This document shows, one piece after another, positions 1 to 41,265 of a stretch of 64,000 bases of DNA (position 1 is the first letter of the stretch; each line of letters opens with the position of its first letter). The notes under the pieces were generated by a model. The model was not told the origin of the DNA. It saw only the letters and a program-made list of their open reading frames with translations, and made no database searches. The DNA is from Geosiphon pyriformis uo1 (Eukaryota > Fungi > Glomeromycota), in contig JAAOMT010000561.1 of the NCBI GenBank assembly GCA_016748015.1, positions 8,026-72,025 of the forward strand. Direction: 5' to 3'. A program made the position numbers and the translations under genes.

Positions 1-99
1 CTTTGCTTGCAGTGGGTGTAAATTGACTGGTAATACTCTAGAGTTGCTGTGTCTGGTGTGGTCACCACTTTGAATTTGTTGTTGCTGTGTTATTTCTGT

Positions 100-111
100 G
101 GGAGAGCACCA
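100..111 (-). promoter_or_regulatory. Primer-binding site (TGGTGCTCTCCC)
   Basis: Starts with TGG 2 nt after the LTR end. Complementary to a tRNA ending ...GAGAGCACCA; tRNA identity not determined. Confidence 0.65.
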
Positions 112-113
112 AA

Positions 114-1124
114 TGTTACCGGAGGTTTTTGGTCTCTTTTCTTAAATGTTGGTAATGTTGATTTGCTGTGAATTCACGTTTTCAGGAAGTAGTTGAATCT
201 CCAATAACTGAATTTATCTTCAAATTATCTCCTATAATTTGAACTGCTGGGCTTATAAGTGGAATAGCCAATTCCTTGCCAGTTACTTTATGTAGTTACA
301 TTGTAGTAAATGTCAACTTTTTTCCAGGAATTATTTGTCTGGAAGCTCACTAAAAATGTGTAGTTACTTTGCTGTGAAAGTCAACTCTTCTACAGGAATT
401 TCGTCTGTAGGCTACCCTAATGATTGTAATAAGAAAAATAAAAGAAAATAAAAGAAATGTAAAAAAATAGAATTTTGTCAAGAGAAACGTTTTCTATCCA
501 GGTCTGGAGTCACTAACAGTTTACTGAAATTGGTAGCTAATCAATTTCAAAATGTTAGTTGGGTTTTGGGGATTTTCCAAGTACAATAATTAAAAAATTT
601 GGTTTTTTGAATTATTTGATATTTATTTCTTTTTGTGTATATAGGAACGGTTTTAAGAGATAAATCTAAAGTAAGATACATTTTCCAGAAGAAAAAAGCT
701 CTTCTTTTATACAATTTGTTGTAGTACTAGTTTATGAACTTGCACTTTTTCTCTTTGCCCAAATTCCAGCAAACTAAAGATATATTTTGATGAACTACAA
801 GTTATTTTGCTGAACTATTGATTAATTTGGGTGAACTATTCATAATTTCGGCAAATTTCTGTAAATTTCGGTGAATTTCTTATAAATTTCAGCAAATTTC
901 TGTAAATCTCGGCGAATTTTTGAATGTTACAAAGTTCAGGGTATTGTGTAATTTGATCATCTTACTTTCTGTTGTACTAATTAGATTATTTTAATTGAAT
1001 CGTGATATGTGATAATTGATTAAATAATAAATAATAATTTGAAATAATATTAATATACTAATGAATTATAGGAATTATAAGGGTAATTTCATGCTAATTA
1101 ATAGCTAAAATTCTACTGGTAACA
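114..1124 (-). mobile_element. Family A LTR, probably the 5' LTR of a minus-strand element whose body lies left of the window
   Basis: TGTTACC...GGTAACA termini. Near-identical to 4200-5173, 11350-12335 and 39713-40683. No TSD. On the minus strand it is followed by TT-TGGTGCTCTCCC (PBS-like). Interrupts the plus-strand pol. Confidence 0.85.
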
Positions 1125-1327
1125 ATGTTCAAACTTTTGATGTCTTTGGCAATATTGAGAACAATTCAGAAGAATTTCATGAACATTATCAGCATTTGGC
1201 ACCTACTAGAGAAGAACAAAAACAGCATTTAGAGCAGTTGAACACTCAATTATGTCAATATTGCTTAATTTCATGTGACTTTTAATATTGTAATGAGTGT
1301 GATCTCATTTACAATCCACCACCATAT

Positions 1328-2431: not shown

Positions 2432-2434
2432 CAA

Positions 2435-3790
2435 ATGCAACTAAAGATATTACTCAGCAATTTCAATGACATCTTTGCAAGCAAAAATGAATTTGGCTGC
2501 ACCAATATCATCCAGCATCAGATCAAGACTAGAGATACAATGCCAATTAAGCAAAAAGCATACAGAGTACCACTAGCTAGCCATAAGATCATTCGTCAAG
2601 AAATCAATTGGATGCTTGACAATAGGTTAATTCAGCCATCAATAAGTCCATGGTCATTATCAGTGGTAGTCCAGAAGAAAAATGGAAAAATCCGTTTTTG
2701 TGTAGATTACCAAAAATTGAATGGAGTAACCAAAAAAGACAGCTACCCAACTCCAAAAATCCAAGAACTATTCAATGCTTTTGGAGAAAATAAATGGTTT
2801 TCAACACTAGATTTAGATAATGGTTATTGACAAATAGCCATGGACCCAGCTGACAAAGAAAAGACTGCATTCATGACAAGAGAAGGGAATTTCAAATTTG
2901 AAGTCATGCCATTTGGCTTGATAAATGCTCCAGTAACATTCCAATGACTCATGAAAATTGTCTATACTAGATTACTATGGAAATCAGTAGTTGTATACTT
3001 AGACAACACAAATGTATTTTCTAAGACATTTGATGACTATCTACATCATTTCCAACAAGTATTTAAAAGACTCAGATGAGCAGGATTGAAACTAAATGCC
3101 AATAAATGCTTCTTTGGCAAAACTGAGCTCAAGTTTTTGGGACATATGATGAGCAAAGATGGCATCAAAATGGATCCAGATAAAATTGCGATAGTAAAGA
3201 ACTTTCTAGTACCAACAAACTTGCCAGAACTAAGGGCATTTTTGGGATTTGCAGGCTATTACTACCACTTCATCAAGGATTTTTCTAAACTAGCCCAGCC
3301 ACTTTACTATCTACAAACCAAGAATGTGAAATATGAATGGATTGAAGCTCAACAAAAAGCATTTAACACATTGAGAAGAAAGCTTATTCAAGCTCCAGTG
3401 TTAATGTATTCAGACCACAGCAAACCAATCATTATTACTATGGATGCATCAAATTAAGCATTGGGAGTAGTACTATCACAGAAAAGACCAGATAGAAGAA
3501 AACATCCAGTAGCTTATATCAGTAGAAGCTTAATTCCAGCCGAAAAGAACTATAGAACACCAGTACTAGAACATTTAGCAATCTATTAGGCAGTCATGAA
3601 ATGGAGAAAATACTTGAGCCAAAAGTTTGAAATATATACAGATCACAAAAGATTGACTTCAATCCAGAAACAAGAATTTGCAGACAATTGCCATGCCAAA
3701 TGGAAAATAAAACTTTTACTATTAATTATACAGTACATTATAAAAAAAAAAAAAACAATGAAAATGCTGACAGATTGTCACAAATGAAAC
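2435..3790 (+). pseudogene. Ty3 reverse transcriptase + RNase H
   Basis: PIKQKAYR, SPWS, KIRFCVDYQKLN, FSTLDLDNGY, MPFGL, YLDN (YxDD), FLGFAGYY, TMDAS, IYTDHK. Confidence 0.95.
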
Positions 3791-3829
3791 AAATCTAAAA
3801 ACATTTCAACCCAAAAAATATAACAAAAC

Positions 3830-6070
3830 ATGAATATGCAAAAATACCAACAACTTCAGCATTATATAAATACTCAATTGTTCAAAGAGAAATTATTTCA
3901 AAAAGAACAAAACAACATAAAACAGCAATCAAAATATTTCATCAATCATCAAAATATACTTTACCAAAAAAACAGAAGAAATCCAGACCAACCAATCAGA
4001 GTAATTACAGAATCAGAAAAAGAAACAATATTGTTTAACATGCACTTAGATCCAACAACAAGATATTTTCATAAAGAAGCAACCATAAAAAGAGCAAGAA
4101 AAAGATAATATTGGCCATCAATGTATTCAGACATCATTCAATATGTTCAAAATTGTGATGCTTGTCAGAAAAGAGGAGGAACAAGACCCAATAAACCATT
4201 GTTACCGGAGGTTTTTGGTCTCTTTTTTGTAATGTTGTTGATATCTGTTTGTTGTGAATTCACATTTTCTGGATGTGGTTGAACCTCCAGTAACTAAATT
4301 TTCTCTTCAAATTATCTCCTATAATTTGAACTGCTGGGTTTATAAGTGGAATGGCCAATTCCTTGCCAGTTACTTTATGTAGTTACATTGTAGTAAATGT
4401 CAATTCTTTCCCAAAAATTGCTTGTCTGGAAGCTCACTAAAAAATGTGTAGTTACTTTGCTGTAAAAGTCAACTTTTCTACAGGAATCTCATCTGTAGGC
4501 TACCTTAATGATTGTAATAAAAAAAGAAAAGAAAAATAAAAGAAATGTAAAAGAAATAGAATTCTGTCAAGGGAAATGTTTTCTATCCAGACCTGAAATC
4601 ACTAACAGTTTTACTGAAATTGGTAGCTAATCAATTTCGAAATGTTAGTTGGGTTTTGGGGATTTTCCAAGTACAATAATTAAAGAATTTGGTTTTTTGA
4701 ATTATTTGATATTTATTTCTTTTTGTGTGTATAAGAACAGTTTTTAAGAGATAAATCTAAAGTAAGATACATTTTCTTAAAAAAAAAAGCTCTTTTTTTA
4801 TACAACTTGTTGTAGTATTAGTCTATGAACTTGCACTTTTTTTTTTTGCTCAAATTTTGGCAACTAAAGATACATTTTGATGAACTACAAGTTATTTTGC
4901 TGAACTATTGATTAATTTGGGTAAACTATTCATAATTTTGGCGAATTTCTGTAAATTTTGGTGATTTTTAGAATATTACAAAGTTCAGGGTATTGTGTAA
5001 TTTGATCATCCTACTTTCTGTTATACTAATTAGATTATTTTAATTGAATCATGATATGTGATAATTGATTAAATAATAAATAATAATTTGAAATGATATT
5101 AATATACTAATTAATTATAGGAATTATAAGAGTAATTTCATGCTAATTAATAGCTAAAATTCTACTGGTAACACCATTAAGACCAATCAAAGTGGAACAA
5201 CCATTTGATCACATTGGAATTGACTTAGTCAGACCATTAACAATCACCAGCAGAGGCAACAGATATATCACAGTAGCCATGGACTATTTCACAAAATGGC
5301 CAGAAACAAAAGCCATTCAAAGAGCAGATGCAGAATCTATTGCCGAATTTGTTTATTAAGATTTGATCTGTTGACACAGATGTCCAAAAAAACTACTATT
5401 AAATCAAGGAACTCACTTTGTGAACAGAACACTGGCAAAATTAAGTCAAAGATTTGGAGTTAAAAGACCATTGTTATCATCATATCATTCACAAACCAAT
5501 GGACTAGTTGAAAGATTCAATAGAACATTGTGTGAAACAGTTGCCAAGATCAGTCAAAAAAACCAGAATGAATGGGATTTGTTTATACTATCAGTACTAT
5601 TTGCTTATTGGACAATGAAGCAAGACACTACACAAGCAACACCATTTGAATTAGTATATGGCAGAACAGTAATATTACCAGTCGAGATAGAAGTCAACAC
5701 TTATCCAACAAAACCAATAACTGAAGACAATTTTCAGAAAATGTTGCTAAAAAGAACATATGACTTGATGAAAACTCTAGAAAACAAGCGACGAAAAGCA
5801 GCTAATAACATTTAAAAGTCATAAGAGAAACAAAAAGAGAGACATGATAACCAACTACCAGACAAACCAGTTGAATTCAAAATTGGAGACAAAGTACTTC
5901 TATATTGTACTAAAGCAGAAAAACAATGGAGTGAAAAATTTGACCCCAAATGAGACAGACCATTTTACATTGAAGAAATTCTTGGAAATGGAGCTTATAA
6001 ATTAAGATGGAACAACAAAATCTTAACCAAAGCAGCACATAGTGATCAACTGAAACCATATCACCATATA
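3830..6070 (+). pseudogene. Ty3 integrase (HHCC, DDE core, GPF motif; no chromodomain seen), split by a solo LTR
   Basis: CDACQK, then NKP|LRPIKVEQPFDHIGIDL in frame across the insertion. Also MDYFTKW, YHSQTNGLVERFNRTL, TPFELVYG. Confidence 0.93.
4200..5173 (-). mobile_element. Solo LTR family A
   Basis: TG...CA termini, TSD CCAT (4196-4199/5174-5177). Removing it restores the integrase frame. Confidence 0.95.
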
Positions 6071-6242
6071 GTATTACTATTATCAATAATATTCCACAAT
6101 TAGGAATACAATGAATACTAGTCCAACCAGATAAGATTCCATGAGATCTGGAACCAATCATAATCATTGGACTAAATATGTAAAATCAAACAATCAGAGA
6201 GTATATAAAGACACAGTATACGTGACAAAAGCAACCAAGAGA

Positions 6243-6878
6243 ATGGAAATACCAGATTATATTCACGCCATAGCTCAACAATTATTCCAGGCCTTAAGTT
6301 AATAATCATTAGACATGGAAATTATCATTAATAACCAAACAATTTGCTATCAAAACACCAAAAAAAAGACAAAGAACACATTATATTAGTGATCACCAAA
6401 GAACAATAAAAACTGGACAGATAACTTAATAAAAAAACTGAAAAATACTTTTGGGAAAATACTTGTTATGGCACCAACAGAAGAACTTACAAAAGAGAAT
6501 TAAAAGCAATGGACAGAATGACTTCCAATATTATATTGCTACTATCAGTTAGGTCAAAAGTTGAATATTCAGGAGTTGTATATCGACAAATCCAAGAAAA
6601 TATTCAACCAAGACATAATACAATAAATTAAAAAATTTATTGGAAAGAAAAAAAATTTAACACTATATGTTAGAACAATATACCGACTATACAACATATT
6701 TCAGAACTATTCAGAAGTACTGTTACACTCTGACATGAAAATCATAACCATCAACCAATGGAGAAGAATAAACAATACACAAGTAGAAGACATAAGAAAC
6801 AGAGTCGAACAAATAATACTTGAAAAAGAAGTATTAGAATTAATTCAAAATGAAGATTTCAATGGAGCTCAATATTAA
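6243..6878 (+). pseudogene. Extra 3' ORF of unknown function between integrase and PPT
   Basis: MEIPDYIHAIAQQLFQAL...RNRVEQIILEKEVLELIQNEDFNGAQY*, with stops/frameshifts. Ends immediately before the PPT. Confidence 0.55.
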
Positions 6879-6892
6879 AAAAGAGAAGATAA

Positions 6893-7755
6893 TATTACTC
6901 ATAAGAAAAAACAAATATAAGAAAATAGTAGACCAATAGGAGAATAGTATGTAGCATGTAAGCACATTGCTCAACAATGTAGAGCAATAATAGAAATCAC
7001 GGCACATTGCTTAGCAATGTGGAGCAATGTCAGAAAACACGGCACATTGCTTAGCAATATGGAGTGATATTAAAAAATGAGAGCACATCACTCAGCAATA
7101 TGAGCATTGCTCAAGAAATTATAGCACATTGCTCAGAAATGTAAGCAATCTCATAGAACATCAATTATGTATATATAGTGATAGCGTTAAAAGTAGAAAG
7201 AACAGAATCCATTAGTTAGAAATCTTCTATATCACAAATATCAATAAATAATTATTTACTATCTCAATCAACTCGTCACTATCAACATTTTATGTTAATA
7301 GTAATTGATACTTAACTCCACTGGAACAATAGCTCTTGATCATGGCTATTGATGGAATACTAACTCGTGCATTGCCTTGGCTCCTTTTTTTATTTTTCTT
7401 TTCTTTTATTTTGTTTTGTTTTTTTGATTTTTATTGTTGTATACTAATTGATTGAGGATTAAAAGCACTGAGATACAGACGTCATAGTGACTGGTAAAAG
7501 ACCTGTGAAACAAGGATAAAACACTCATAGATTTGAGAGTAGCTTACCAAGAGGATTACTGGCCATCATGCTGAGAAAAAAATTTGACAAAACTACAGTT
7601 TCGGAAAGCTACAGATAAACCCATCAATTAACTTTCTGTCTATTATACAAAAAACTCTACAATAAAACCTTCAGATATCAATACTTGAGTACCAACCAAG
7701 CACCAAGTTACAGATTTGTTATTTGACTTGAGATCCCAAATAATCATCTGTAACA
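6893..7755 (+). repeat. 3' LTR family B
   Basis: T(A)TTACTCATA...CTGTAACA. Homologous to 13171-14154, 15610-16458 and 39506-41265. Palindromic U3 array and TATATATAG. Confidence 0.9.
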
Positions 7756-7849
7756 TTGGCATTAGTGTTCTTGGATCCTTCCTTGTAATGAACTTTGAGT
7801 GAAAATTGTTGCAGATAAGTATTCTATCTTGCATATTTTTTTTTCAGCT

Positions 7850-9110
7850 GTGGGTTATTGAGTAATTAAATGAGTTTCTTATAATTAGTATATAGGTCAA
7901 ATAGTTGCCTGAGGTAGTGTTTCTATGTTTCTATGGCCCAATAAATAACAAGGCATTCCAAATTTGTTGCACTATATATTTTTTCTGCTGGGCTGGTACT
8001 GCGACTGGTATAGGTAATTGGATGTTCTCTTCTGTCTGGTCTTATTTGTGATAATACAGCTTCTAGTGCATTTTTTAATGCATCTGTAGTGTCAATGAAT
8101 TGTTTGATGAAATCAGGATAGATCAGTATTGGAGATGTGATTAATCACTGTTTAAGATAGTTAAAGGCCTTTTGTTGCTTTTCTTTCTACAGGTATGGCA
8201 TGTATTTTGACAACAAATAATGAAGAGGTTTTGTAATAGTTGAGAATCCTTTGATGAATTGGCAGTAGTATCCAGCCAGTTTTAAAAATCCTCATAGCTC
8301 TTGTAAGTTGATTGGGGCTGAAAAATCCTTGATCTTTTGGATTTTGTCTGAGTTGGGTTTTATTCTGTCTTTGCTGATCATGTGTTCTAAAAATTTCAGT
8401 TCAGTTTTCCTGAAAAAGCATTTATTAGAATTGAGTTTCAATCCAGCACCTCGAAAGTGTTCAAAAACTTGTTGCAAGTAAAGCAAATGTTTGTCAAATG
8501 TTTCCAAGAAGACATTGGTGTCATCCAAGTATACTATAATTAATTTCCACAAGATTCCTTTATATATGACATCCATAAGACATTGGAATGTAGTAGGAGC
8601 ATTGCACAGTTCGAAAAGCATTAAGTTGAATTCAAAATTTCTGTCTTGGATGGTGAATGCCATTTTCCCTTTGTTTTTCAGGTCTATTTTGACTTGTCAA
8701 TATCCACTGGCCAAATCTAGAAATGAGAACTATTTCTTTTTTCCTAAGTTGTTTAGGATTTTTTGGATAAGAGATGTGAGATAACTATTTTTTCAAGTAA
8801 TACTATTTAATTTTTGGTAATCTATGCAGAATTGTACCTTTCCATTTTTCTTGGTGATTAAGACCACTGAAGAAGACCGAAGGCTTAATGATTTTTTAAT
8901 TAGTTTGTTGTTAAGCATTTGTTGTACTTTTTGCTTAATCAGATTATCTCTAGATGGGGGTATTCGATAAGCTTGCTGCTTAATAGGTTGAGCATTTCTG
9001 GTGTCAATCTGGTGTTTTATGATATTGGTGCATCTGAACTCATTTTCATTAGTAAAGACATTGGTGTATTAGTTCAATAGAATCTTAAGTTGCATTTGCT
9101 GTAAAGTGCT
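7850..9110 (-). pseudogene. Ty3 RT + RNase H
   Basis: MLFELCNAPTTFQ, VYLDD, KCFFRKTELKFLEH. Confidence 0.9.
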
Positions 9111-9176
9111 CAGGTTTCCCAAATTGAGTTTATTGATTTCTTCTGACATGAACAAGTAATTTTTTTTTGGCAGGTT

Positions 9177-10139
9177 TCATACTTGTGAGATAATGTCACA
9201 GAACAAGAACAATTGAGTGAAATCTAGAATGAACTGAGGTTTTTCTGAATTCTGAATATTTGAAAATATGAAACCAACAAGGGTTCCCTTAGGAATTTTA
9301 ATAATGTCTTCAGTCAAATTGTGGATGAGAATTTTGAAGTGTTTATAAGCTTTGGCTGGTAAGTACAGGTTAGCAACATTGGCTAATGAGCAGATTTTGG
9401 AATTGGCCTTGAAGACTAGTGCTTGGTTCTGAATCTTTTGGTTGATTTTGAGAATGTACTGCCAATAAGAAGTAATAGAAATAATGGTGTTAGTGTAAAT
9501 AAATTCTACCTGATTACTATTCTCCTCCATAAAATTGACCATTATGTTCTTTCTTCTACTTGAGCCAAACCCCTTGATTTCTCGGACAGTAAGATCTAAT
9601 TCTTCTTAGGTGGTAACTAAGACTAGTTGGGGTATTTTGACTAAAGATAAGATGGCTTGGGCAATTTTTTTGTGAGATTCAATCTTGTAAAGTTTGTTTG
9701 AATTGTTCTGTAGCATTACAATGATGTTTTTCATATATCCAGCATTAATAATTCCTTCTTTTACATTGATTTTTTTTTTTGCAAGATTTAATCTAGACAC
9801 TACTTGTATTATGGTACTAACAAAAATTTCTAGCACTATTTTGAGATCTATTTTTACCAGGAAATGTAGGGCTATAACTATGGGTAATTGTTCAGAGTAT
9901 CTTAAGTCAAAACTTGTATTGGTTTTGTGTGCTTTTTCTGGGCATATTTCTTTGTTGTCATTACTGTACCACTTTAATTCTAATTCTTTGAAAAGGTCAG
10001 GATATGCAAGATATTGTTCTATTTCGGTAGTCTGATTTGGCTCTTGAAATAATATGTCTTTGGTAAGTAATTCCTCTTTTTCTTCAGGCTCAGGTAATTT
10101 GGTAATCAGGTATAGAATTCTGAAAGGCAGGTTGAACAT
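9177..10139 (-). pseudogene. Retrotransposon dUTPase plus second degenerate segment
   Basis: SFDLRY, SRLNLAKK, GIINAGYMKNI, KKIAQAI. Paralogous to 1328-2431. Confidence 0.85.
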
Positions 10140-11349
10140 AAGATTACATTTGTCGTAGTATTAAAAGTGGCAAGGAATTAAGCAGTGATTGTATAGTTTA
10201 GTATTTAGATCAACTAGCTGCTGTTTTTGCTCTTTTCGGGTTAGGGCCAATTCTTGATATCAGTTCTGAAATGCATTGGGGTTATCTGTAAAGAAATTAT
10301 CCACAAAGTAGTCGGATTTGTTATATTTGGGCATCCAAGGGTTGTTCTTAATTTCTCGTATTTCTTCAGTGTGGCACCTTTGGCTTTGGCACTTATTATT
10401 CTCCAAATTTTGTGATTATTATGTAAATAACCATTCAGCCTATTGAGTGCTCATTTCCAAGTGTCCTCGATAGAGATTCCCTTTCATACCTAATTGTTGA
10501 TTAATATGGTGTATTGACAAGCCTCATTGCATGTTTCTTCTCTGCCAGGCACATCATTCCAGAGTTCTTCATTAGGCAGAATTTCGCCACATGCAAGGCA
10601 TGACATGTTGTCCCATTTGTTTTGTTATTTTGGTCATTCAAATTTTTTCAATAAACAAGGTCTGCAGTAGTATTTGGTGGCAGTAGGCCATTCTTTGTTG
10701 TCTCTGATACATGTGTTCATAGTGGATAGCTTCTTTTCACAATCAATACATATTAGTCTTGGAAGTTAGTAAAATAGATTTCTTTGGTTTGAGGTTATGT
10801 ATATTAGTGATGACGATTGGAGTTTTTTTTCAGCTCTGTCTTTTCTTTTTTCTTCCCAGGTTGGTGGTGGAAGTAGTTCAGTTTGATAAATGTCCACCCA
10901 TGAAACCTAATAGATCTTAATATTTAGTAGTAGTGGTGTGTCTTCAAATTCAATAAGAAGTTCTTTAGTATATTGGGTTTTAAAGTGTTCGCACATAGCT
11001 GGGACTTGGGCATGCTGTCCATTAAATGTGAGTTGAAGTTCTTGGGTGTTCTAGTCGAGAGTAGCGTTGGCTTTTGACAACCAATTATTTCCTACCAGAG
11101 CTTGATATTGAGTAGCTTCTATGACAAATACTTTAGTAAGGATCTGAATTCCATTAATCTCAAAAGGGAAGTTGTCAATTTCTCCTATTGGAGTTTTTGT
11201 GTTTCCATCCATTGTAATGATCTGGACAGTAGCAGCATGGTCTACTCAGTGACCTAGTTGGTCCATGAGCTGCTTTGTGATTATGCTACCAGCTGATCTG
11301 TTGTCTAAAATTAATTTAATGTCTATTCTTTCGACTCTGGTGTTAGTGT

Positions 11350-12335
11350 TGTTACCAGACAAAATTAGAGATATTATTTAGCATAAAATTATCTTATAAT
11401 TCCTATCATTAATTAGCATATATTATTGTTTCAAATTATCACTTATTACATTAGCAAAAATGTCTGAAATTATTATTTTATTAATAACTCAAATTGTACA
11501 CAACACAAATATAACTTAATTGCAATGATCAATCATGCAATATCCCAAACTATGTAATATTCAAAAGTTTGCCGAAATTTGTAGAAATTTGCCAAAATAA
11601 TTAATAGTTCACCGAAATATCTAATAGTTTGCAGAAATAACTTGTAGTTCGCCAAAATGTATCTTTAGTTCAGCAAAATTGTAGAAAATAGCAAAGTTCA
11701 AGTTCATAGAATAGTGTTATAACAAGTTGTATAAAAGAAGAGCTTCTCTCTTCGAGAAAATGTATCTTACTTTAGATTTATTACTTAGAACCACTCCTAC
11801 ACACACAAAAAAAAATAAATATAAAATAATTTGAAAAACCAAAAACTCTTTAATTATTGCATTTGGAAAATTCTCAAAACTCAACTAATGTTTTGAAATT
11901 GATTAGCTACCAATTTCAATAAACTGTTAGTGACTTCAGGCCTGGATTGAAAATGTCTCTCTTGACAGAATTCTATTTCTTTTACATTTTTTATTTTATT
12001 TTCTTTTTATTTTCTTACTATAATCATTAGGGTAGCCTACAGATAAGATTTCTGTAAAAGAGTTGACTTTTACAGCAAAGTAACTACACATTTTTTTAGT
12101 GAGCTTCCAGACGAGCATTTCCTGGGAAAGAGTTGACATTTACTACAACGTAACTACATAAAACAACTGGCACAGAATTGACCATTTCACTTATAAGCCC
12201 AGCAGTTCAAATTATAGGAGATAATTTGAAGATAAATTCAGTTACTGGAGATTCAACCACATCCAGAAAACGTGAATTCACAGCAAACAAGCATCAACAG
12301 CATTTAAGAAAAGAGACCAAAAATCTCCAGTAACA
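11350..12335 (+). mobile_element. Solo LTR family A (inverted relative to the other copies)
   Basis: TGTTACCAG...CAGTAACA, TSD GTGT/GTAT. Sits just upstream of the protease motif. Confidence 0.92.
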
Positions 12336-13170
12336 GTATATAGGGCCGTTATTTGTTTATCCTAATTGATGGCTGCTCCACTAAAAAAGCTATGGATGCT
12401 CAAATTATTAATGTCAAAAGGAAATATGATGACTAGGGTAGTGTTCTTGGTAATAATGGCTGGTAAGATATTACTTTTTGTTAACTTGAAAGGTTGGAAG
12501 ATTTGTTTTTTCACAGATATAGATTTATCAAAACCCTGGTCTTTCATGAGACTGAGGTAGGAAGCTTGATTCGAATATTTGGTTGGTGCAAGTCAAAATT
12601 GAGCAGAACTGTGAGGAATTGGTCAAGACGGTCTGCTGTTGGTTTGTGCCTGATTGTTGTTGAGATTCCTCCATCCCTAATTATAATCTATGGCTTGAGG
12701 TCTGAACTGGCTGTAAGGAAAAATTTGATAGTGAGGAATTGTTTGTGTTATTGGTAATGGTTGATAATAATTCTGGGGTGGTGGTTGAGTATATGGGACT
12801 TGTTATGCATACTGGGGCAGTTGATTTTGAAGTATTGAATATTGGAATACTATGTTTTGCTAATATCTTGGTTGCTGGTATTGGTTTCCTTGAGTTTGGT
12901 CTATTATCTTTTTTCTGTAGTCACAGGCAATATGTTCAGGTTTCTGGCAATAATAACAGTTGTGAGAATTGGATCTTCAAGGTTGTTGCTATTGCTGACA
13001 GTTCTGTTGCTATAGATATCTGCTATTGTTGTTATTTTCTCTTTATTGTGATAGTTGGTAAGTTCCTGTAGTTCTGGCTAAGAATCCCTCAATTTTCTGA
13101 GTAAATTTTTCACTTAATTGGATTATCTTTGCATTAATGTTAGAGGTTCCATTGATGGCTAAATTTATGG

Positions 13171-14154
13171 TGTTATTTATAGAAAAAAAATACAAGAAAA
13201 TAATAGGAAAAACAGATAAGGAAAATAGACCAATAAGAGAATAGTATTTAGCATGTAAACACATTGCTCAGCAATATAAAACATTGTCAGAGAATTATGG
13301 CACATTGTTTAACAATGAGCATATTGTCAGAAATTACAGGCACATTGCTTAGCAATGTAAACATTGCTTAAGAAATCATGACACATTGCTCACGAATGTG
13401 CAGAACCTCATATAACATAAATTATATATATATAGTGAGAGTGTTAAAAGCAAAAAAAGTAATTTCAGGAGAATTCAAGAATTCCTAGAGAATTCAATAG
13501 AGTTTTATTAATTTAGAACAATCTCTTTTCTTCTCTATTTATTAACCCTTATTTCAAGGATAGTTGCTATTAACCAAAATGAAATTATATAAATAAAAAA
13601 TCTCTCCAATTCTTCAAATCTATGTTATTGTTGTTTGTTTGAAAATATAATCACTTTTTCATTTATCAACACTTCATGTTGATAAAATCTAACACTTAAC
13701 CACACTAGAACAATAGCTCTTGATCATGACTATTAATGGGATACTAACTTAAATTGCCTTGGCTTATTTCTAATTTCTTATTTTCTTTTTATTTTTTTTT
13801 CTTTTATTTTATTTTCTTTTGTTTGTTGACTTACTACTGATTAAAAAAATTAAACACTGAATAATTGACATCAAAGATAGCCTAATAAAAGACCCAAAAA
13901 TAAGGGTAGAATTATATATATTAACAAATAGCTTACCAGAAGGGCATGACTGCCAGATTAAACCAGCCACTATGCTGAAGACAGAAATTGGAAAAACAAT
14001 TTGAGAAAACAGCCTAAACCAATCAGAGTGAATCTCTGTCCATTATACAAAAAACTCCACAACAAAACCTTTAGATAAAACAATATTATATTAATTGAGC
14101 ACCAAGTTATGGGTTTGTTATTTGCTTTAAGACCCCAAATAATCACCTGTAACA
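13171..14154 (+). mobile_element. Solo LTR family B in gag
   Basis: TG...CA termini, TSD ATGG. Confidence 0.93.
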
Positions 14155-15522
14155 ATGGCTTGGGTATGGTTTGCTTCTTGTTCTGTGGATTCAAAATTAT
14201 AAGTAAGAGTGACTGCTTCTTGTAGGTTTGTTGAATGGTAAGATTGTACAGATTTTAGGAGGCTGCTCCTTAGTCCTTTAATAAATTGATTGAGAACTTG
14301 CATGGTGGTATAATAATTTTGCTCGATGGTTAGAATTTGTCGAAGGACCTGATTGAATCTTCTGAGATAAGTAGTTACTGCTTCATGGTCATTTTGTTTT
14401 ATTATACTGAATTGATTTTGCAATTGAATGAGTGTATTAGGATCACAGAAGTATTGCAAAAATACGAGTTTAAACTCTGTAAAGGAGGTAGGTTTCTCTG
14501 CAAGACTCTGATATCATGAATTAGTGATTCCAGTCAGAAAGAACGGCAGTGTCTAAATGGTGTGGTTATTGTTTCAACCATTAGTGGTAATTGCTTTCTT
14601 GGCATTCACAATCCAAGAATATGTATTATCTTCTTCATCAGAGAATTTCTCTAATTTAGCAATATCCCAGTAAGCCATGATTTGGTTAATGGGTGGGGTG
14701 TTACTGGTTACATTTGACGGAATTGGTGTCTGTGTATTCAAGTGTTCTCCAGGTGCTAATGCTGGTTGTTTTCCTTTGTCACTTGAATCAATAGGTTGTA
14801 AGATAGCTGTTCCTTCTATTAAGGAAGATGCTAATTCTGCTGAGTTTGTGCTGGTAGTGGTTTCCAAGTTGATATGTTTTCTTCTGTTTAACCAGCTGTT
14901 GGGGTAAGATTTCCAAACAGTGATTCATATTTTCTTAGTGATTTGGTCCAACTTTGTTGACTCCAAGGGTGTGAATTTTCAGGAGTTTGTGGTATTTCTA
15001 ACTGGATTTCTGGGGTGAATTGAATACAATTTTACTTTGGGATGTCTGATGATATGATAGAATTGTTGGAGAGAGGAACTTTGGTTTTTTGTTAACCGTA
15101 GACTTGTCTTGGGCAGTTGTGGAATTATTGGATCTGTTTTTGTATTTCTCCAGATTAGATTCTACTGGTTGTTGTATTTGAGAGAATTGTTTTGTCATAT
15201 AGTGTTTAATATCTGTATCGACTATGCATAGAGTTTCAGCAATTGTTCAAGTAGTGGTAGTTGTTGAGTACCCTAGTAAGCTTTGATGGATTTGTTCTTT
15301 AAGTCTTTCTGTATTAGTTGTGCAGCTTAATAAGCAGTTAATTTTTGTGTTGATATAGTTGCAAAAATCACTTTCTGCAATGGTGGTTTCTGCTGGTATT
15401 TCTAGATCTTTTCAAAAGTGTTAAAATAGTGCTCTTTTGTATGAGAAGTGGTCCTTTCCTATTGTTTCAATAGTCACCACTTTTGTGTATCTCTGGGATA
15501 TTCTGTTTTTGTAGATTTATAA

Positions 15523-15539
15523 CCTCACAGGGAGCACCA
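15523..15539 (-). promoter_or_regulatory. Primer-binding site TGGTGCTCCCTGTGAGG
   Basis: 2 nt after the family C LTR end. Complement ...CCTCACAGGGAGCACCA resembles eukaryotic elongator-Met or Ile(UAU) tRNA 3' ends. Confidence 0.75.
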
Positions 15540-15541
15540 AA

Positions 15542-17432
15542 TATTATGGGTAAACTTGGTGGGATATAAAAATAGTAACATTTGGTGCTTTCAATAATTA
15601 GTAATGCATTGTTACAAATAACTATTTGGGGTCTCAAGTCAAATAACACACCTGTAACTTGGTGCTTAAAAGCTATTTCTGTTGATAATGTTCTAAAAGT
15701 GTTGTATCTGAAGATTTTGATGGAATTCTTTGTATAATGAACAGAGATTCAATAGTGATAGTGTTTGCATGTTCAGTTGTTTTCCAATTTCTTTCTCAGC
15801 TTGATGGCCGGATTTATTCTGGCAGTTGTGCCCTTCTGGTAAGCTAACCAATAATATATATAAATCTACCCTTAGTTCTGGGTCTTTTACCAGGCTATTT
15901 GTGACGTTAATAACTCAGTACTTTTAATCCTCAATTAATTAGTATGCACACAAAATCAAAGAAAGATAAAAGAAAAAATAAGAAAATAAGCCAAGGTGAT
16001 TTGCAAGTTAGTATCCCATCAATAGCCATGATCAAGAGCTATTGTTCCAGTATGGTTAAGTATTAATTACTATCAACATGAAGTGTTAATAGTGAAGAAT
16101 GAATTTGATATAGTGAATAATTATTTATTCTTTAGGATTGTGGTAACTAAGCTAAGAATTCTTCTTGTCAATTCTTCTTCCTTTTTTCTGCTTCTAATAC
16201 TACTGCTATATATACATATTTGAGATTCCTCAATTCCTCAATTTCTTGCAACAGGAATCCTGGAATTCTGCAATTCTTGATAAGAGAAATCCTGGAATTC
16301 TGGAATCCTGCAATTCCCTGTCAGAGAATTCTGAAATTCCTGGAATTCTGCAATTCCTCTAAGAAGAATCTTGGAATTCCACATTTACTACGTCTACCTC
16401 TGATTGGCTAATATCTACTGGCTAATAATACTATATTTTCTATATTCTATGAGTAACAGCGTCTTTGGCATAATTCTGTTGGCTTATTCTTGATTATCAA
16501 TCTCTGAAAGTCTTATTTTACTGGTTGTGAATTTACCCATTGAGTTCTTTGGTTATAAAGCACAGAGTTTTGGTTTTCGCTAATTGTAACTTCTTATAAA
16601 GATGAGCTTTCTCTTTTGAGTTAACGAGTATAGTCATTAAGGTCTGACATTGTCTTTTTACCCTTTTGGTAAGCTATCAAGTTAATGTTAATATCCAAAA
16701 TCTAGGGGGAGCTTTTCTCTTTTACTAGGCTATCATAAAGTCTATTCCCAGACAGTCAATTTTACTATGTTGCCACTTCTCAAGAAAAAAATAAAAAAAA
16801 ATAAAAAAAATAAAAGCAAAGAAAGAAAGAAAATAAAAGAAAAGATAAATTAGTATTGTTAATCACCATGATCAAGAGTGATTGGTTAGAAAATTATTAA
16901 TAGTTTGAGGTGATTATACTAAGAGCATTTGTCTTAAAACAAAGGTACAAAACAATAGTTAATTCACATAAATTTCACAAAGTTCGAGAACATGAATTTG
17001 TGATTCTAATTTCTTAATAATTGATTTATTTCAGAAGATGAATATGGAATATAATTGATAAAAGTGTATAGAAATTTGATTCTCATCTAGTAATTCGTAT
17101 CTATTTGTCTTTCTACTTACTACAACTACTTGCTTTTATACTTTCTTTTGGTTTTATAGAATTGCTTCTGATTGTTTTATTATTGCTAATTATTGCTTTG
17201 TTATTTCTGTTATTGCTTTGCTCTTCTATGTTATTACTAGTTATCTTATATTATAACATGTTATCTGGTGTTATTACATGTTATTCTGTATTATCCTGCA
17301 TTATAATGCATTATTTTGCACTATCCTAAGTTATAATACATTATCCAACATTATTGTGTGCTATTCTGTGCTATGTTATGTTCTGGTCACATTACTTCCT
17401 AACTTCAGATCAGTTTTTTTACTTGAATAACA
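15542..17432 (-). repeat. 5' LTR family C (contains nested solo LTR B)
   Basis: Reverse complement of 35369-36407 once 15610-16462 is removed. Confidence 0.9.
15610..16458 (-). mobile_element. Solo LTR family B variant
   Basis: TGTTAC...GTAACA termini, TSD GCAT/GCGT. U3 carries a GGAATTCTGCAATTCCT array instead of the usual palindrome array. Confidence 0.9.
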
Positions 17433-31930: not shown

Positions 31931-32877
31931 TGTTATATCAATATTAATTACAATACTTAATTTTATTCTGGTTAAAATTAAAAATTATAATAATAGATAA
32001 AATAACCAATTAGAAATAGGCATAGTAAAAAAAGAAATTCCAGAATTTTTCTTAGAAAATTGCAGGATTTCTTTCAAAGAATTATAGGATTCCAAAATTC
32101 CAAAAATTTTTTTAGGGAATTGCAGAATTGCAGAATTTTAGGATTTCTTTTGAAAAATTGCAGGATTTTAGAATTTCTGTCAAAAAAATTAAAAGATTTT
32201 AAGAAATCTTATATAATATAAATTATGTATATATAATAAAAATATTAGAAGTAGAAAAAGTATTTATTCAACTTAGACAGAACAGTAGCTAGCAATAATT
32301 ACTTATTCTATATTCCTCCCTTTAAAAAATAGTTTTCTATAACTTAAAATAAAATCACATTAATATTAATAAAATGCTTAATTATCATTTAATCTATATT
32401 ATTATTGTTTGATTAAAAATATTAATTACTTTTCTACTATCAATATTTTATGTTGATAGAATCCAATACTTAATTACATTAATAACTTTTAATTATGACT
32501 ATTAATAAGATACTAATTTCTTATTTTCTTTTATTTTTTTTTCTTTGGTTTTATTTTTTTGTTGTTTATTAATTAATTAAAAAAATTAAGTATAAAGTAT
32601 TTGATGTTAAGAATAACTTGATAAAAGACCTGAAAACAAGAGTAAAAATTTAAGGATAACTTATTAGAAAGGCACAACTACCAGAATAAACTGGCCACTA
32701 TGCTAAAAAAAAATTTACAGAAGAAACCATTAATTAAATTTCTGTTTATTATACAAAAAACTTAACCCAAAAACTTTAAACTCCAAAACTTTCAGAAATT
32801 ACAGATATTTTCAGCTATTAAGTACTAAGTTATAAATTTGTTATTTGTTTTAGCACTTCAAATAATTACCTATAATA
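31931..32877 (+). mobile_element. Decayed solo LTR family B variant
   Basis: GGAATTGCAGAATT array as at 16220-16380, plus family B U5 end. TSD not recognisable. Confidence 0.7.
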
Positions 32878-33885
32878 ACATTAAACATAATAAGCAAATT
32901 TTTCTTAATTTTGTGATTTTTGCACATATTTTAAATATAAAAGAAATAACCAAAACAACCAAAAAACTAATAAATTTAATAATAAATTTTATTAAAACAA
33001 TCAAACATAAAATCTGAAATTTTAAAGAGTTTAATTTAGACTTAATAACAGAATTAGCAATAAAAACAGTCAAAAAAACAGCAAAAAAAGAAATTAAGAG
33101 AACAAAAACTATAACATAAGATTTATTATTAATAACAAAAGATACAAAAAACCAAAAACCAACAATTAACTTAGAAAATAATTTGAAAAATAAAAAAAAA
33201 ACACCTTATAATCAACAGATAAATGATTTAAACTCTAATATCTATAATAGTAATATTATTTAAAAGTTTTTTATTAAATACAATATTTGTATAAAGTACT
33301 AATTTTTGTTATAACAAGTTTTAACTTTTTACAAAACTTAAAAATAATAATAATAAAGTATTAATAATATGAATTAAAAAAATAAGAAATAAAACAAATA
33401 TAACTACCAATCTAAAAAATAATATTACTGATTTCAAAAGTAATATAATTAAAAAAAATTAATTAATTTAACTTTAAAAAAATTTTGAAAAAAAAAATTG
33501 AATATTGTCTTTTTTATTAAAACAGATTAGTTATTAAAAGCAATAATAGCAGAAAAAAAGTTCTTAAAATTAATAATGACATATTATTACAAGTCAATAG
33601 ACTTTAATTTAATAAAAATAACAATATTAAAAATTTTAAAGACATTTTTAATATTATTATCTAAATAGAAAAACCAATCTAAAACTATTAAAAAAAATAT
33701 GATTATTATATAATAATATAAAAAAATATGATAATACAAAATAACATAAAATACCATAAAATAATACAAATAATTCAGAATAATACAAGATAATACATAA
33801 TAATACAAAATAACACAAAATAAATAGTAAAAACATAGAATAAATATTTATAATATAAAAAAATAAAGCAATAACAAGTATAATA

Positions 33886-36800
33886 ATTTTTATCTCCTTA
33901 ATTTTATGGCCATAATTAAAGTAAAGAGTAAAAAAGCTTTGCCTGATATTTTTTCTGAAATATTTAATAAATTTTCTATTAAAAAAGCTTTCTTTGTTGT
34001 CAAAGCTACTAACAAAATGTCTTGGAAGCTTTTTTTTAAATATTTATAATAAAAGACTGCTTTTGATGGTCTTTGGAGCATTTTTTTTATCTTTGACTGG
34101 TTTTTTACCAGTTAAAATTTTTTTAAAAAAACACACTTGAGTTAGTTTTAATATTGCTTTTACTTTTTTAAAAAGTCCAAAAGTTTTTAATAACAGACCA
34201 GTCAACAAGCTAATCTTTCTTTTCATAATTTTTATATCAGATACTATTAGCACTTCTTCTTTAAAAAAAATGATTAAAAAAACCAAAAGTTCAGAAAAAT
34301 GGAGACAATTGCTTGTCTTTGTTATTGTTATACTGAACTCTTTTATGGTTTTTAATAAGATTTTAGATAAGATTTTTGTTGTATTATTCAGCATAGTATT
34401 CAAAATAAGCCAAAATTAACTACTGGCAATATTGTCAAATATAATCTTTTCTGATAAATTATTGTTAGTTTTAAAAGCAAAACAACAGTTTTCTGTTAGA
34501 TTATTTGTTTTTAAGAATTGAGCTAATCAGATAAAAACTGATTCAATTTTTTTTTGGTTTTTAGTGCTGTTATTAATAGTGCTTAGAAAACTATTGTTAG
34601 TTATCAAAAATTTGCTAAATAAGTGGCCTCTATTCTGGTGTTTTGTGCTATTTTTAAGATTAAATTGGCTTATATTAAGGCTGTTTTTCAGTCTGCATAT
34701 GGTTTTTGAATGTAAAGTCAGTATTAAAAGATAATATAAAGCTTTTTTATATAAATTTTGCTTCTTAAGAATTTTTAAAAGCTGTTTTTCTGGTTGAGCT
34801 TACAAGCTCTGTTTGCCTAATCACTCTTAAAATTGCCAAGTTCTTGGTAATTTCTAAAACTGGTTTTTTTTTACTGCTGTTGTGCTGTATAATATGCCTT
34901 TAGATATATTTGCTGCTAACATTAAAACAGTTTTTAGTGTGTTTAGTAAAGTTGTTTATGTTATATTAAAGTCTGTTGGCATTTGGCAATATGTAATTGT
35001 TTACTTTATTGAATTAGATTCTGCTGTGTTTGCTTTGAATTATTGGTTGGTTTAATAAGTAAAAATAGTGTTAGAATTTTTTTTTTAGTAAATTAAAATG
35101 AAACTATTTGTCTTATAATAGATTTAAAGCCAAGTTAATCAATTTTTTCTTTGGTTGTATTACTTTTAAAATTAGTAATATGATTTCTCAAATTGGTAAT
35201 CAAACATGTTTTATTTTTTATTTTTCTAATTCTGGTTATTATTTCTGGTTTGCTTTGGTTATGTTTGATTTTTAGGTTAATTTGAATACTGCAGTTTTCA
35301 AAACTAATACACTGAAGAAATATTATATTTAGTGGAAGACTTTTGGTTATTAGCATTGTTTTAGGTGTTGTTACCCAAGTAGAAAAACTGATCTGAAGTT
35401 AAGAAGTAACATGACTAGAACGTGACATAACACAGAATAGTGCTCAATAACATTGGATAATATATTATAACTTAGGATAGCACAGAATAATGTGTTATAA
35501 TGTAGAATAATACAGAATAACATATAATAACACCAGATAATATGTTATAACATAAGATAACTAGTAATAATATAAAAGAGCAAAGCAATAACAAAAATAA
35601 CAAAGCAATAATTAGTAATAATGAAACAATCAGAAGCAATCCTGTAAAACCAAAAGAAAGTATAAAAGCAAGTAGTTGTAGTAGATAGAAAGAGATAGAT
35701 ACAAACCATTAGACAAAAATCAAATTTCTATATTCTTTCATTAATTATATTTTATATTCATCTTCTGAAATAAATCAATTATTAAGAAATCAAAATCACA
35801 AATTCATGTTCTTGAACTTTGTGAAATTTACATGAATTAACCATTGTTTCGTATCTTTGTTTCAGGACAAATGTTTTTAGCATAACCGCCTCGAACTATT
35901 AACAATTTTCTGACCAATTGCTCTTAATCACAGTAATTGATAATACTAATTTATCTTTCCTTTTATTTTCTTTCCTTTTTTGCTTTTATTTTTCTTTCTC
36001 TTTCTTTATTTTTTTCTCTTGAAAAGTGGCAACATAATAAAATTGACTGTTTGGGAATAGACTTTATGATAGCCTGATAAAAGAAAAAAGCTCCCCCTAG
36101 GTTTTGGATATTAACATTATCTTGATAGCTTACTAAAAAGGCAAAAAGACAATGCCAGACCCTAATGACTGTGCTTGTTAGCTCGGAAAAAAAAGCTCAC
36201 CTTTATAAGAAGTTGCAATCAGCAAAAACCAAAACTCCGTGTTTTATAACCAAAGAACTCAATAGGTAAATTCACAACCAGTAAAATAAGACCTTTAGAG
36301 ACTGATAATTAAGAATAAGCCAACAGAATTATGCCAAAGATGCATTATTAATCATTGAGAGCACCAAACATTACCATTTTCATATTCCACTAAGTTTACT
36401 CATAACAGTATCAAAAAATAAGCTATTTGATAGTAAACTGTAAAGTTTTACTATCTTTCTCTTTTAAGACTTTTAAGATGTTCAAACTACATTTTGTGAA
36501 TCATGTTTTTTATACTAAGACCTCCATTTTTCTGAATTCTACTGAGTTTTTTTCTTTGGTAACTTTTGTTTTTTTTTGTAGTTGTTAGTAATTCTTTAAT
36601 TTTTTCTTAGCTGGCATTTTTGAAATTCAATTTGAATAAGTTGTTAGCTTTGATTAAATTAATTATTAAATCTGTTGGTACATTAGTTACTATATTTAAG
36701 CAGTTTATTAAAAATAATTTGGCTTCAAACAGTATTTTTAATTTTAAGATTAATAAGTTTATGATTCATCTAAGTTCTTTTGGCAAAGTTGTTAGTAAGT

Positions 36801-39505: not shown

Positions 39506-41265
39506 TGTTACAGATAATTATTTGGGATCTCAAATCAAATAACAAATCCATAACTTGGTGCTCAATATCTTGACAATGCTAGTAATACTAGTATATTGGT
39601 TGTATCTGAAGGTTTTAGAGTTGAGTCCTTTGTATAATAAACAGAAATTCAATGACAATATAGTTGGTTGGTGAGTTGTGTTCCCAATTTCTGTTTTCAG
39701 CTTGGTGGCCAGTATTACTGGAGGTTTTTAGTCTCTTTTTTTGAATGTTGTAAATGTCTGTTGATTGCAAATTTATGTTTTCTAGAAGTAGTTAAACCTC
39801 CAATAACTGAATTTATTTTCAAATTATCTTCTATAATTTGAACTGCTGGGCTTATGAGTGAAATGGCCAATTCCGTGTCAATTACTTTGTATAGTTACAT
39901 TGTAGTAAATATCAACTCTTTCCCAGGAATTGCTTGTCTGGAAGCTCACTAAAAATGTGTAGTTACTTTGCTGTGAAAGTCAACTCTTCTACAAGAATCT
40001 CATCTGTAGGCTACTCTAATGATTGTAATAACAAAATAAAAAAAAAATAAAAAAAATGTAAAAGAAATAGGATTTTATTAAGAAAAACGTTTTTTATTCA
40101 GGTTTAGAGTCACTAACAGTTTACTGAAATTGGTAGCTAATTAATTTCGAAATGTTAGTTGGGTTTTGGGGATTTTTCAAGTGCAATAATTAAAAAATTT
40201 GGTTTTTTTGAATTATTTGATATTTATTTCTTTTTGTGTGTATAGGAATGGTTTTAAGTAATAAATCTAAAGTAAGATACATTTTTTTGAAGAAAAAAGC
40301 TCTTCTTTTATACAATTTATTGTAGTACTAGTCTATGAACTTGCACTTTTTCTCTTTGCTCAAATTTTGGCAAACTAAAGATATATTTTGATGGACTACA
40401 AGTTATTTTGCTGAACTATTAATTAATTTGAGTGAACTATTCATAATTTCGGCGAATTTCTATAAATTTCGGTAAATTTTTGAATGTTACAAAGTTCAGA
40501 GTATTGTGTAATTTGATCATCCTACTTTCTGTTATACTAATTGGATTATTTAATTGAATTGTGATATGTGATAATTGATTAAATAATAAATAATAATTTG
40601 AAATGATATTAATATACTAATTAATTATAGGAATTATAAGGGTAATTTTATGCTAATTAATAGCTAAAATTTTACTGGTAACACCAGTTTATTCTGGCAG
40701 TCATGCCCTTCTGGTAAGCTATCCATTAATATATATATAATTTTACTCTTATTTCTGGGTTTTTTACCAGGCTATCCGTGATGTCAATTACTCAGTGCTT
40801 TAATCTTTAATCAGTTAGTATACAACAGTAAAAATCAAAGAAAGAAAGAAATAAAAGAAAATAAAGAAATGAGCCAAGGCGATATGTATGTTAGTATCTC
40901 GTCAATAGTCATGATCAAAAGCTATTGTTTCAGTGTGGTTAGGTATCAATTACTATCAACATAAAGTGTTGATAATAGAAAGTGGGTTTGAATAGTGAAT
41001 GATTTATTTATTTAATATTTGTGGATGGAAGATTTCTAACTAAAGGATTCTTATCTTTCTACTTCTAATACTACCACAATATATACATAATTGATGTTCT
41101 ATGAGATCACTTACATTTCCGAGTGATGTGCTATAATTTCTTGAGCAATGTGCTGTAATTTCTATCATTGCTCTACATTGCTAAGCAATATGTTCATGTA
41201 CTACATACTATTCACTTATTGGTCTACTATTCTCCCTATATCTGTTTTTCTTTTTATGAGTAACA
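39506..41265 (-). mobile_element. Solo LTR family B containing solo LTR A
   Basis: TGTTAC...GTAACA termini, TSD ATAT. Confidence 0.92.
39713..40683 (-). mobile_element. Solo LTR family A
   Basis: T(A)TTACTGG...GGTAACA termini, TSD CCAG. Confidence 0.93.

What the first reader, a model, noticed from the sequence alone, without database searches (positions are those of the whole stretch)
15523..15592. U5 anti-PBS (tRNA 3'-end mimic) conserved in three LTR families
Seen: in family C, AGCACCAAATATTA (15533-15546, PBS plus LTR end) and TAACATTTGGTGCT (15576-15589, inside U5) form a 14-bp inverted repeat (one mismatch) with a 29-nt loop. The solo copy has GAGAGCACCAAACATTACC (36357-36375). Family B LTRs carry AGCACCAAGTTACAG about 45-55 nt from their end (7699, 14098, 15653, 39550), complementary to CTGTAACA plus a predicted TGGTGCT PBS. 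Family A has AGAGACCAAA facing TTTGGTGCTCT (about 102-138). Known: Tf1-type elements self-prime using the mRNA 5' end, and 3' tRNA fragments silence LTR elements through the PBS. Inference: a hairpin that occludes the PBS. It could be a new self-priming route, a priming switch or a shield against tRNA fragments.
Basis: partly seen in the sequence, partly recalled or inferred. Interest (0 to 1): 0.72.

Follow-up and report, generated by a model that had tools for sequence, protein, structure and literature searches.

The report
Hairpin masks retrotransposon tRNA primer site
In two of three related families of decayed fungal Ty3/gypsy jumping genes, the end of the terminal repeat carries a conserved sequence complementary to the start of the tRNA primer site, which is predicted to fold into a hairpin that likely times primer loading, much as in retroviruses, rather than replacing the tRNA.

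Summary
The inverted repeat is real. It sits at the 5' LTR/PBS junction of a decayed, dUTPase-bearing Ty3/gypsy element (minus strand) in a Geosiphon-like genome. Arm 15576-15589 pairs with LTR end, TT spacer and PBS nt 1-7 (14 bp). Other copies mostly lack the one mismatch. None of 18 unrelated gypsy junctions has such a stem. Family A does not fit: its dominant fold is a 13-bp stem on the LTR end that leaves the PBS open. The PBS is a full 18-nt complement of a tRNA 3' end, its distal 10 nt stay free, and the arm lies about 460-590 nt behind the predicted polyA signal. Tf1-type self-priming and a tRNA-fragment shield are therefore unlikely. Best reading: a U5-IR/U5-PBS-type stem, as in retroviruses and Tf1, extended over the PBS and opened by tRNA annealing. 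Covariation inside families is not significant, and nothing is tested in RNA. An earlier scan note (e1-7508199) reached a similar idea in another genome.

The parts
15576..15592 (-). U5 arm of element C1: on the RNA it reads like a tRNA 3' end plus the first bases of minus-strand cDNA; pairs with PBS nt 1-7, the spacer and the LTR end
15547..15575 (-). 29-nt loop; variable in letters and length among copies
   Evidence: tables 3, 4 and 7
15542..15546 (-). 3' end of the C1 5' LTR (TAACA in most copies; C of the terminal CA changed at 15543 in this copy)
   Evidence: (G on + strand in 75% of depth)
15540..15541 (-). 2-nt TT spacer between LTR and PBS
15522..15539 (-). 18-nt PBS of C1, complement of tRNA positions 59-76 (T-stem, acceptor strand, discriminator, CCA); host tRNA not identified
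15542..17432 (-). 5' LTR of element C1, interrupted by solo LTR B3
15610..16458 (-). solo LTR B3 inside the C1 LTR, 4-bp target duplication ACGC/ATGC; arm at 15666-15652
7803..14543 (-). decayed C1 coding region: Gag (14543-14268), protease (weak hit, E 0.028), dUTPase, RT, RNase H; interrupted by solo LTRs B2 and A3. Fixes the element's orientation
35369..36407 (+). solo LTR C2, flanks GTGT/GTAT; arm at 36357-36375
6893..7755 (+). LTR B1, likely the 3' LTR (purine tract upstream) of a second element whose pol lies at 1125-6880; arm at 7699
13171..14154 (+). solo LTR B2, target duplication ATGG; arm at 14098
39506..41265 (-). solo LTR B4, interrupted by solo A4 (39713-40683); arm at 39562-39548
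32079..32881 (+). heavily decayed B5 LTR remnant (start approximate); arm degenerate
94..111 (-). 18-nt PBS of element A1 (a different tRNA), after a TT spacer at 112-113
114..1124 (-). 5' LTR A1; carries the family-A 13-bp stem on the LTR end and the weak AGAGACCAAA motif
4200..5173 (-). solo LTR A2, target duplication ATGG
11350..12335 (+). solo LTR A3, flanks GTGT/GTAT

Best explanation
These Ty3/gypsy elements are likely tRNA-primed, and the arm near the LTR end is predicted to fold back on the LTR end and the first 7-8 nt of the PBS, a U5-IR/U5-PBS-type hairpin that likely gates primer loading. Shown in DNA: the arm, its complementarity, its retention in families B and C with different loops and different LTR-end stems, and an 18-nt tRNA-shaped PBS shared by B and C. 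Predicted: in free RNA the hairpin hides PBS nt 1-8 while nt 9-18 stay open. Inferred: tRNA lands on the open 10 nt and, helped by the Gag zinc-knuckle chaperone in the particle, displaces the arm. The inner part of the stem (about 6 bp in C, 9+8 bp in B) would remain next to the primer 3' end and set the start of reverse transcription, as the U5-IR stem does in Rous sarcoma virus and Tf1. Family A keeps only that inner kind of stem (13 bp).
For: Orientation and class from Gag, dUTPase, RT, RNase H and integrase remnants. Stem covers 7-8 PBS nt in 6 of 6 B/C junctions (1 natural, 5 joined in silico), with predicted pairing 0.85-1.00. In 0 of 18 unrelated gypsy junctions does a Watson-Crick stem cover more than 5 PBS nt. 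Opening PBS 1-8 costs 9.6-14.7 kcal/mol (z 2.0-5.1), opening PBS 9-18 only 0.9-4.1, and the 18-bp duplex gains -37.6. The last 120 nt of B and C share little beyond GAGCACCAA, yet each arm continues as the complement of its own LTR end: 97.6% of cells paired in B against 34-57% when slid. Two further subfamily consensuses (5 and 8 contigs) share the PBS and keep the arm at a shifted distance (table 7). B-type ends follow the same PBS in 3 contigs. A decayed CCHC knuckle is visible in the Gag translation, and 2 of 52 Gag homologs carry PF00098. In MLV, nucleocapsid opens the U5-PBS segment for tRNA annealing (PMC11181671, passages).
Against: Family A does not mask its PBS, and family D (2 copies, PBS unknown) shows no arm by eye, so masking is not essential for the whole group. 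Covariation inside B and inside A does not beat shuffles (210-250 and 263 of 500), and CpG decay (CpG observed/expected 0.16-0.20) creates G-U pairs and apparent double changes by itself. About a fifth of the depth carries changes at 15579 and 15580 that break pairs, and solo C2 has two mismatches. B and C LTRs are related, so the arm probably arose once. Two of 18 background junctions also reach high opening energies through bulged stems (1 and 2 of 100 shuffles). Only one C and one A junction are natural in the window. No RNA data were available.
Confidence: 0.55

Rival explanations
1. Only the stem on the LTR end (U5-IR proper) is under selection. The extension over the PBS in B and C is a passenger inherited from their ancestor and has no gating role.
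For: All three families have an LTR-end stem (A 13 bp, B 9+8 bp, C about 6 bp), but only two mask the PBS. Both C arms continue no further than PBS nt 8, and the C2 arm matches the A-type PBS (10 nt) better than the C-type PBS (8 nt).
Against: GAGCACCAA is the main stretch B and C share in their last 120 nt. In C the LTR-end stem is too short to fold without the PBS part (C2 alone -5.0 kcal/mol and no such stem). The arm survives loop-length changes.
Confidence: 0.2
2. Neutral relic: an old inverted copy of the LTR-end/PBS junction (a captured tRNA-cDNA junction) that was passively inherited.
For: The arm is exactly the sequence of a tRNA 3' end joined to the first cDNA bases. B and C are related. 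Within-family covariation is not significant.
Against: The LTR-end part of the arm differs between B and C and matches each family's own end, while surrounding sequence is unalignable.
Confidence: 0.1
3. Self-priming: RNase H or another nuclease cuts after the arm's CCA, and the arm primes minus-strand synthesis as the mRNA 5' end does in Tf1.
For: The arm ends in the same register as a tRNA CCA end on the PBS. Tf1-type self-priming is known in fungi (PMC4600332, PMC7175516, passages).
Against: In Tf1 the primer is the first 11 nt of the RNA. Here the first AATAAA lies 74-109 nt after a TATA-like box in 6 of 7 LTRs (168 in B2), every AATAAA lies upstream of the arm, and the arm is 456-591 nt behind the first. 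A cut there would give strong-stop DNA without R (inferred from motifs; start and end sites not mapped). A self-primed element would copy its arm, not a tRNA, into the PBS, yet PBS nt 9-18 follow tRNA shape and not the arm's upstream sequence.
Confidence: 0.06
4. Shield against 3' tRNA fragments that silence LTR elements through the PBS.
For: 3' tRNA fragments block mouse LTR elements at the PBS (PMC7773854, passage). The hairpin raises PBS opening cost.
Against: An 18-nt fragment would still gain more than 20 kcal/mol and has the same free toehold as tRNA. The masked half pairs with the fragment's CCA end, not its 5' seed (seed position recalled). No evidence for such silencing in this fungus was sought or found.
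Confidence: 0.05
5. The repeat acts at the cDNA stage: the copy of the arm in minus-strand strong-stop DNA pairs with the tRNA 3' end and first cDNA bases, helping strand transfer or primer removal.
For: This follows from the same complementarity.
Against: No direct evidence. G-U-tolerant changes fit the RNA strand at least as well.
Confidence: 0.04

Closest known systems
U5-IR stem-loop of Rous sarcoma virus and the similar stem of Tf1 (Miller 1997; Cobrinik 1991; Lin and Levin 1998; seen only as citing passages and reference titles in PMC3601003, PMC5445492, PMC4600332; details recalled)
   Same: Inverted repeat in U5 that pairs with the LTR 3' end right next to the PBS; loop sequence and length vary.
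   Different: In B and C the stem runs on through the spacer over PBS nt 1-8. Stems are longer (up to about 25 bp in B). The host is a fungal tRNA-primed gypsy lineage, and no function has been tested.
Retroviral U5-PBS segment remodelled by nucleocapsid (MLV, HIV-1; PMC11181671, PMC8473020, PMC1865047, passages)
   Same: Structure around an 18-nt tRNA PBS has to be opened for annealing; masking and unmasking of priming signals regulates initiation.
   Different: Here the masking strand is a direct mimic of the tRNA CCA end plus the first cDNA bases. In HIV-1 the masked element described in those passages is the PAS, not the PBS.
Tf1/sushi self-priming elements (Tf1, Tf2, Tj1; PMC4600332, PMC7175516, passages)
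   Same: An LTR sequence is complementary to the PBS in a fungal Ty3/gypsy element.
   Different: The complement is not at the predicted RNA 5' end, covers 7-8 of 18 nt, and the PBS itself is tRNA-shaped with a 2-nt spacer.
Conserved Hairpin Site of fungal GalEa copia elements (PMC5445492, passages)
   Same: Conserved hairpin at the LTR/leader junction in a fungal LTR element.
   Different: CHS replaces the PBS, is palindromic and pairs downstream. Here a true PBS is kept and pairs upstream.

Membership tests
Ty3/gypsy LTR retrotransposon | Gag, PR, RT, RNase H, integrase order between LTRs with TG..CA ends and target duplication | tested here: met
   Pfam hits in that order across two decayed elements (C1 shows Gag to RNase H, the second dUTPase to integrase); TGTTA..TAACA ends; 4-bp duplications on solo LTRs
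tRNA-primed LTR element | PBS starting TGG 1-3 nt after the LTR and complementary to a tRNA 3' end | tested here: met
   18 nt split into T-stem, acceptor strand and CCA in C and A; the C-type end is the 3' end of a called tRNA gene in 19 of 19 viral loci
tRNA-primed LTR element | match to a tRNA gene of the host itself | not testable with these tools
   no host genome held, no tRNA gene in the window; the matching genes are phage-type, 18 Met(CAT) and 1 Leu(CAA); the A-type pattern had 0 hits
U5-IR-type stem (RSV, Tf1) | inverted repeat pairing the U5 3' end next to the PBS | tested here: met
   predicted stems in A (13 bp), B (9+8 bp) and C (14 bp with PBS)
U5-IR-type stem (RSV, Tf1) | stem forms in RNA and is needed for initiation of reverse transcription | not testable with these tools
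   all copies decayed; no RNA holder listed
U5-IR-type stem (RSV, Tf1) | compensatory base changes keep the stem | tested here: inconclusive
   97.6-98% of cells paired but not above shuffles; 5 and 4 copies only
Tf1/sushi self-priming group | PBS complement is the first 11 nt of the RNA | tested here: inconclusive
   motif layout puts the arm 456-591 nt behind the first AATAAA; start site not mapped
Tf1/sushi self-priming group | PBS matches the element's own LTR over its length and not a tRNA | tested here: not met
   only nt 1-8 match the arm; all 18 nt fit a tRNA 3' end
GalEa Conserved Hairpin Site | no PBS; palindrome at the LTR boundary | tested here: not met
   PBS present, no palindrome

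The most novel reading that the evidence does not exclude
Families B and C are a caught intermediate between tRNA priming and Tf1-type self-priming: their LTR encodes a tRNA-CCA mimic in exact priming register on a still intact tRNA PBS, and a cut after the mimic's CCA gives a second, host-independent primer.
Probability: 0.06. Interest if true: 0.8.

Novelty: new variant of a known kind. Interest (0 to 1): 0.38.

Why it matters
Structures that control priming have been worked out for a few retroviruses, Ty1, Ty3 and Tf1. A high-copy fungal gypsy lineage in which sister families keep either a PBS-masking or a PBS-free version of the same U5 stem is a natural comparison for what masking does. 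It also shows how an LTR can come to hold a PBS complement, the raw material for self-priming. If it is only a U5-IR stem, it is a modest extension of a known principle.

Tried and rejected
No host genome is held, so no genome-wide family set and no host tRNA match. Run search: one DNA holder, no RNA holder listed; no inference on expression is drawn. RT search in viral contigs with the window protein found nothing. The inverted-repeat pattern in viral contigs gave 6 hits that look like chance matches in coding-like sequence, judged by eye from flanks only. A Gag alignment found no relative in metagenomes, and all 52 Gag homologs were from one species. The RT scan of metagenomes read only 2 of 64 parts and returned distant gypsy elements (39-49% identity), so the planned cross-lineage covariation test could not be run; those loci served as background. 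The PBS-junction pattern had 0 hits in prokaryote genomes. The representatives search added no names or context. I first read the lack of variants in the PBS and arm as conservation, then dropped it: listed variants all lie 31 or more letters from the ends, so 15512-15542 and 15581-15612 are probably not assessed. One search shows 40 of 90 variant rows, so absence there is weak. A pseudoknot joining both family-A stems was rejected by reasoning (a 0-1 nt linker cannot span 13 bp); they would be alternatives. Reading 15576-15592 as the true LTR end plus a tRNA-Thr-like PBS on the plus strand was rejected, because the coding remnants and the solo copy fix the minus orientation. The Lin and Levin 1998 paper was not available.

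Full report
Setting. The window is 29% GC. All 119 named hits listed for its dUTPase-like ORF are Geosiphon pyriformis proteins, so it is a Geosiphon-like fungal genome. Repeat regions are CpG-depleted (observed/expected 0.16-0.20 against 0.95 in the gene-rich part). Self-comparison and alignment give three LTR families plus a fourth (D), with TGTTA..TAACA ends and 4-bp target duplications on solo copies. A six-frame Pfam scan of 1125-15525 shows two decayed Ty3/gypsy elements with dUTPase before RT.

The observation. The 14-bp inverted repeat and 29-nt loop are as described. In RNA the mismatch is a G-U pair. Contigs of the one DNA run that holds the stretch show G at 15543 in 75% of depth, which makes that pair Watson-Crick; about 20% carry changes at 15579 and 15580 like solo C2. 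The loop varies in letters and length. Two loose-end consensuses (5 and 8 contigs) share the PBS and LTR end and still carry the arm at a shifted distance. Summed depth over the PBS is about four to five times that over the C arm, in line with a PBS shared by several LTR families, though depth is not a copy number.

Family B. AGCACCAA is exact in 4 of 5 copies. No B copy in the window has its own PBS, but 3 contig joints place B-type LTR ends directly behind the C-type PBS and spacer (short sides 22-26 letters, laid at 80% likeness). Joined in silico to that PBS, B ends fold into a long hairpin: 8-9 bp on the PBS and spacer, a 2-nt bulge, 9 bp on the LTR end and an inner 8-bp stem. The 17 pairs that need no joining are formed in 97.6% of cells against 34-57% for slid registers, but the two double changes do not beat shuffles.

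All four copies, however, carry a 13-bp inverted repeat between about -97 and the LTR end (98% of cells paired). It wins in A2, A3 and A4, leaving PBS pairing at 0.01-0.11. PBS opening energy is 1.9-2.5 kcal/mol in all four, below shuffled controls. The AGAGACCAAA motif also aligns weakly with the inner-stem arm of B (E 0.03-0.3), so it may not be an anti-PBS. The claim holds for two of three families.

Control. From 87 gypsy loci (8 of 68, after dropping 60 pararetrovirus-like ones, and 79) I picked by eye 18 LTR-PBS junctions (one duplicate dropped; junctions not independently verified). None has a Watson-Crick stem over more than 5 of PBS nt 1-8, against 7-8 in all six B/C junctions. Two of 18 reach unusual opening energies through bulged stems. 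The feature is therefore not general in gypsy elements, but weaker PBS masking may occur elsewhere. Close relatives outside this genome could not be obtained with their PBS.

The primer. Both PBS types are 18 nt and split cleanly into tRNA positions 59-60, T-stem strand, acceptor strand, discriminator and CCA, with the conserved C61 (numbering recalled). The C-type end with a T-loop in front is a called tRNA gene in 19 of 19 viral loci, 18 Met(CAT) and 1 Leu. These are phage-type genes, so the host tRNA stays unidentified; elongator Met or Ile(UAU) are recalled candidates. Plus-strand synthesis copies the primer into the PBS (PMC7175516, passage), so an 18-nt tRNA-shaped PBS whose nt 9-18 do not match the arm's upstream sequence points to tRNA priming.

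Position in the RNA. A TATA-like box is followed by AATAAA 74-109 nt later in 6 of 7 LTRs, and every AATAAA lies upstream of the arm, the first by 456-591 nt. The arm is therefore probably in U5 and far from the RNA 5' end, unlike the Tf1 primer. This rests on motifs only.

Mechanism. In B and C, opening PBS 1-8 costs 9.6-14.7 kcal/mol, opening PBS 9-18 only 0.9-4.1, and a full duplex gains -37.6. This is the layout of a toehold-opened gate: tRNA can invade from the free half and displace the arm, probably with the Gag zinc knuckle (decayed motif visible), as nucleocapsid does for the MLV U5-PBS segment (PMC11181671, passages). The inner stem would stay beside the primer end like the U5-IR stem of RSV and Tf1 (citing passages in PMC3601003 and PMC5445492). 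The same energetics make a poor shield against 18-nt tRNA fragments (PMC7773854, passage).

Literature. Seven answered full-text searches of the open library, plus one with no result, listed no report of this arm in Glomeromycotina or in tRNA-primed gypsy elements. A survey of AMF transposons has no mention of PBS (PMC11952901, passages). All papers were seen as search listings or passages, none whole, no supplements; older subscription papers are not in the library. The scan's own notes hold a similar switch idea for another genome (e1-7508199) and two notes that this lineage has a stand-alone integrase; I did not test the first and only partly the second.

Verdict. A real, non-random feature, selected with moderate probability, in two of three families. 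It works like a U5-IR/U5-PBS stem and is not a member of the Tf1 self-priming group on the features tested. New variant of a known kind; interest 0.38.

Noticed in passing
   Followed up: yes
window:1574-1948 and 9558-9944: dUTPase domain just before RT in both gypsy elements (after the protease remnant in C1); hundreds of annotated Geosiphon 'hypothetical proteins' are fragments of it.
   Followed up: partly
window:2534-3715; P0122, P0125, P0127, P0340, P0363, P0374, P0379: Several of the closest RT-RNase H relatives end 26-37 residues after the matched RNase H stretch, in line with earlier notes that this lineage encodes integrase separately.
   Followed up: partly
window:94-111 and 15522-15539: Two related families use different 18-nt PBS types, neither like the initiator-Met site common in fungal and plant elements (comparison recalled); host tRNAs not identified.
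   Followed up: partly
solo LTR flanks at 4200, 11350, 13171, 15610, 20467, 35369, 39506, 39713: All target duplications are 4 bp, several with a purine-pyrimidine alternation (ATGG, GTGT/GTAT, ACGC/ATGC, ATAT, CTGG); several LTRs sit inside other LTRs.
   Followed up: no
window:47166-49983: A 1399-bp, 100% identical tandem duplication split by 20 N (48565-48584): probably an assembly or scaffolding artefact.
   Followed up: no
window:42800-51000 (-) and 56500-61700 (+): Two decayed elements in opposite orientation with endonuclease-, RT- and RNase H-like ORFs, LINE-like by eye.
   Followed up: no
window:20467-21150 and about 51240-51972: A fourth LTR family (D) with the same ends and TATA-AATAAA spacing but no visible arm.
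   Followed up: partly
window:23206-23694 (+) and 29478-31208 (-): Host-gene-like ORFs in the CpG-normal region; the second ends in a PHD-finger-like Cys/His motif (by eye).
   Followed up: no
L145 and L158, PBS junctions: Two unrelated gypsy elements also have bulged stems that pair the LTR end with the PBS more strongly than shuffles.
   Followed up: partly
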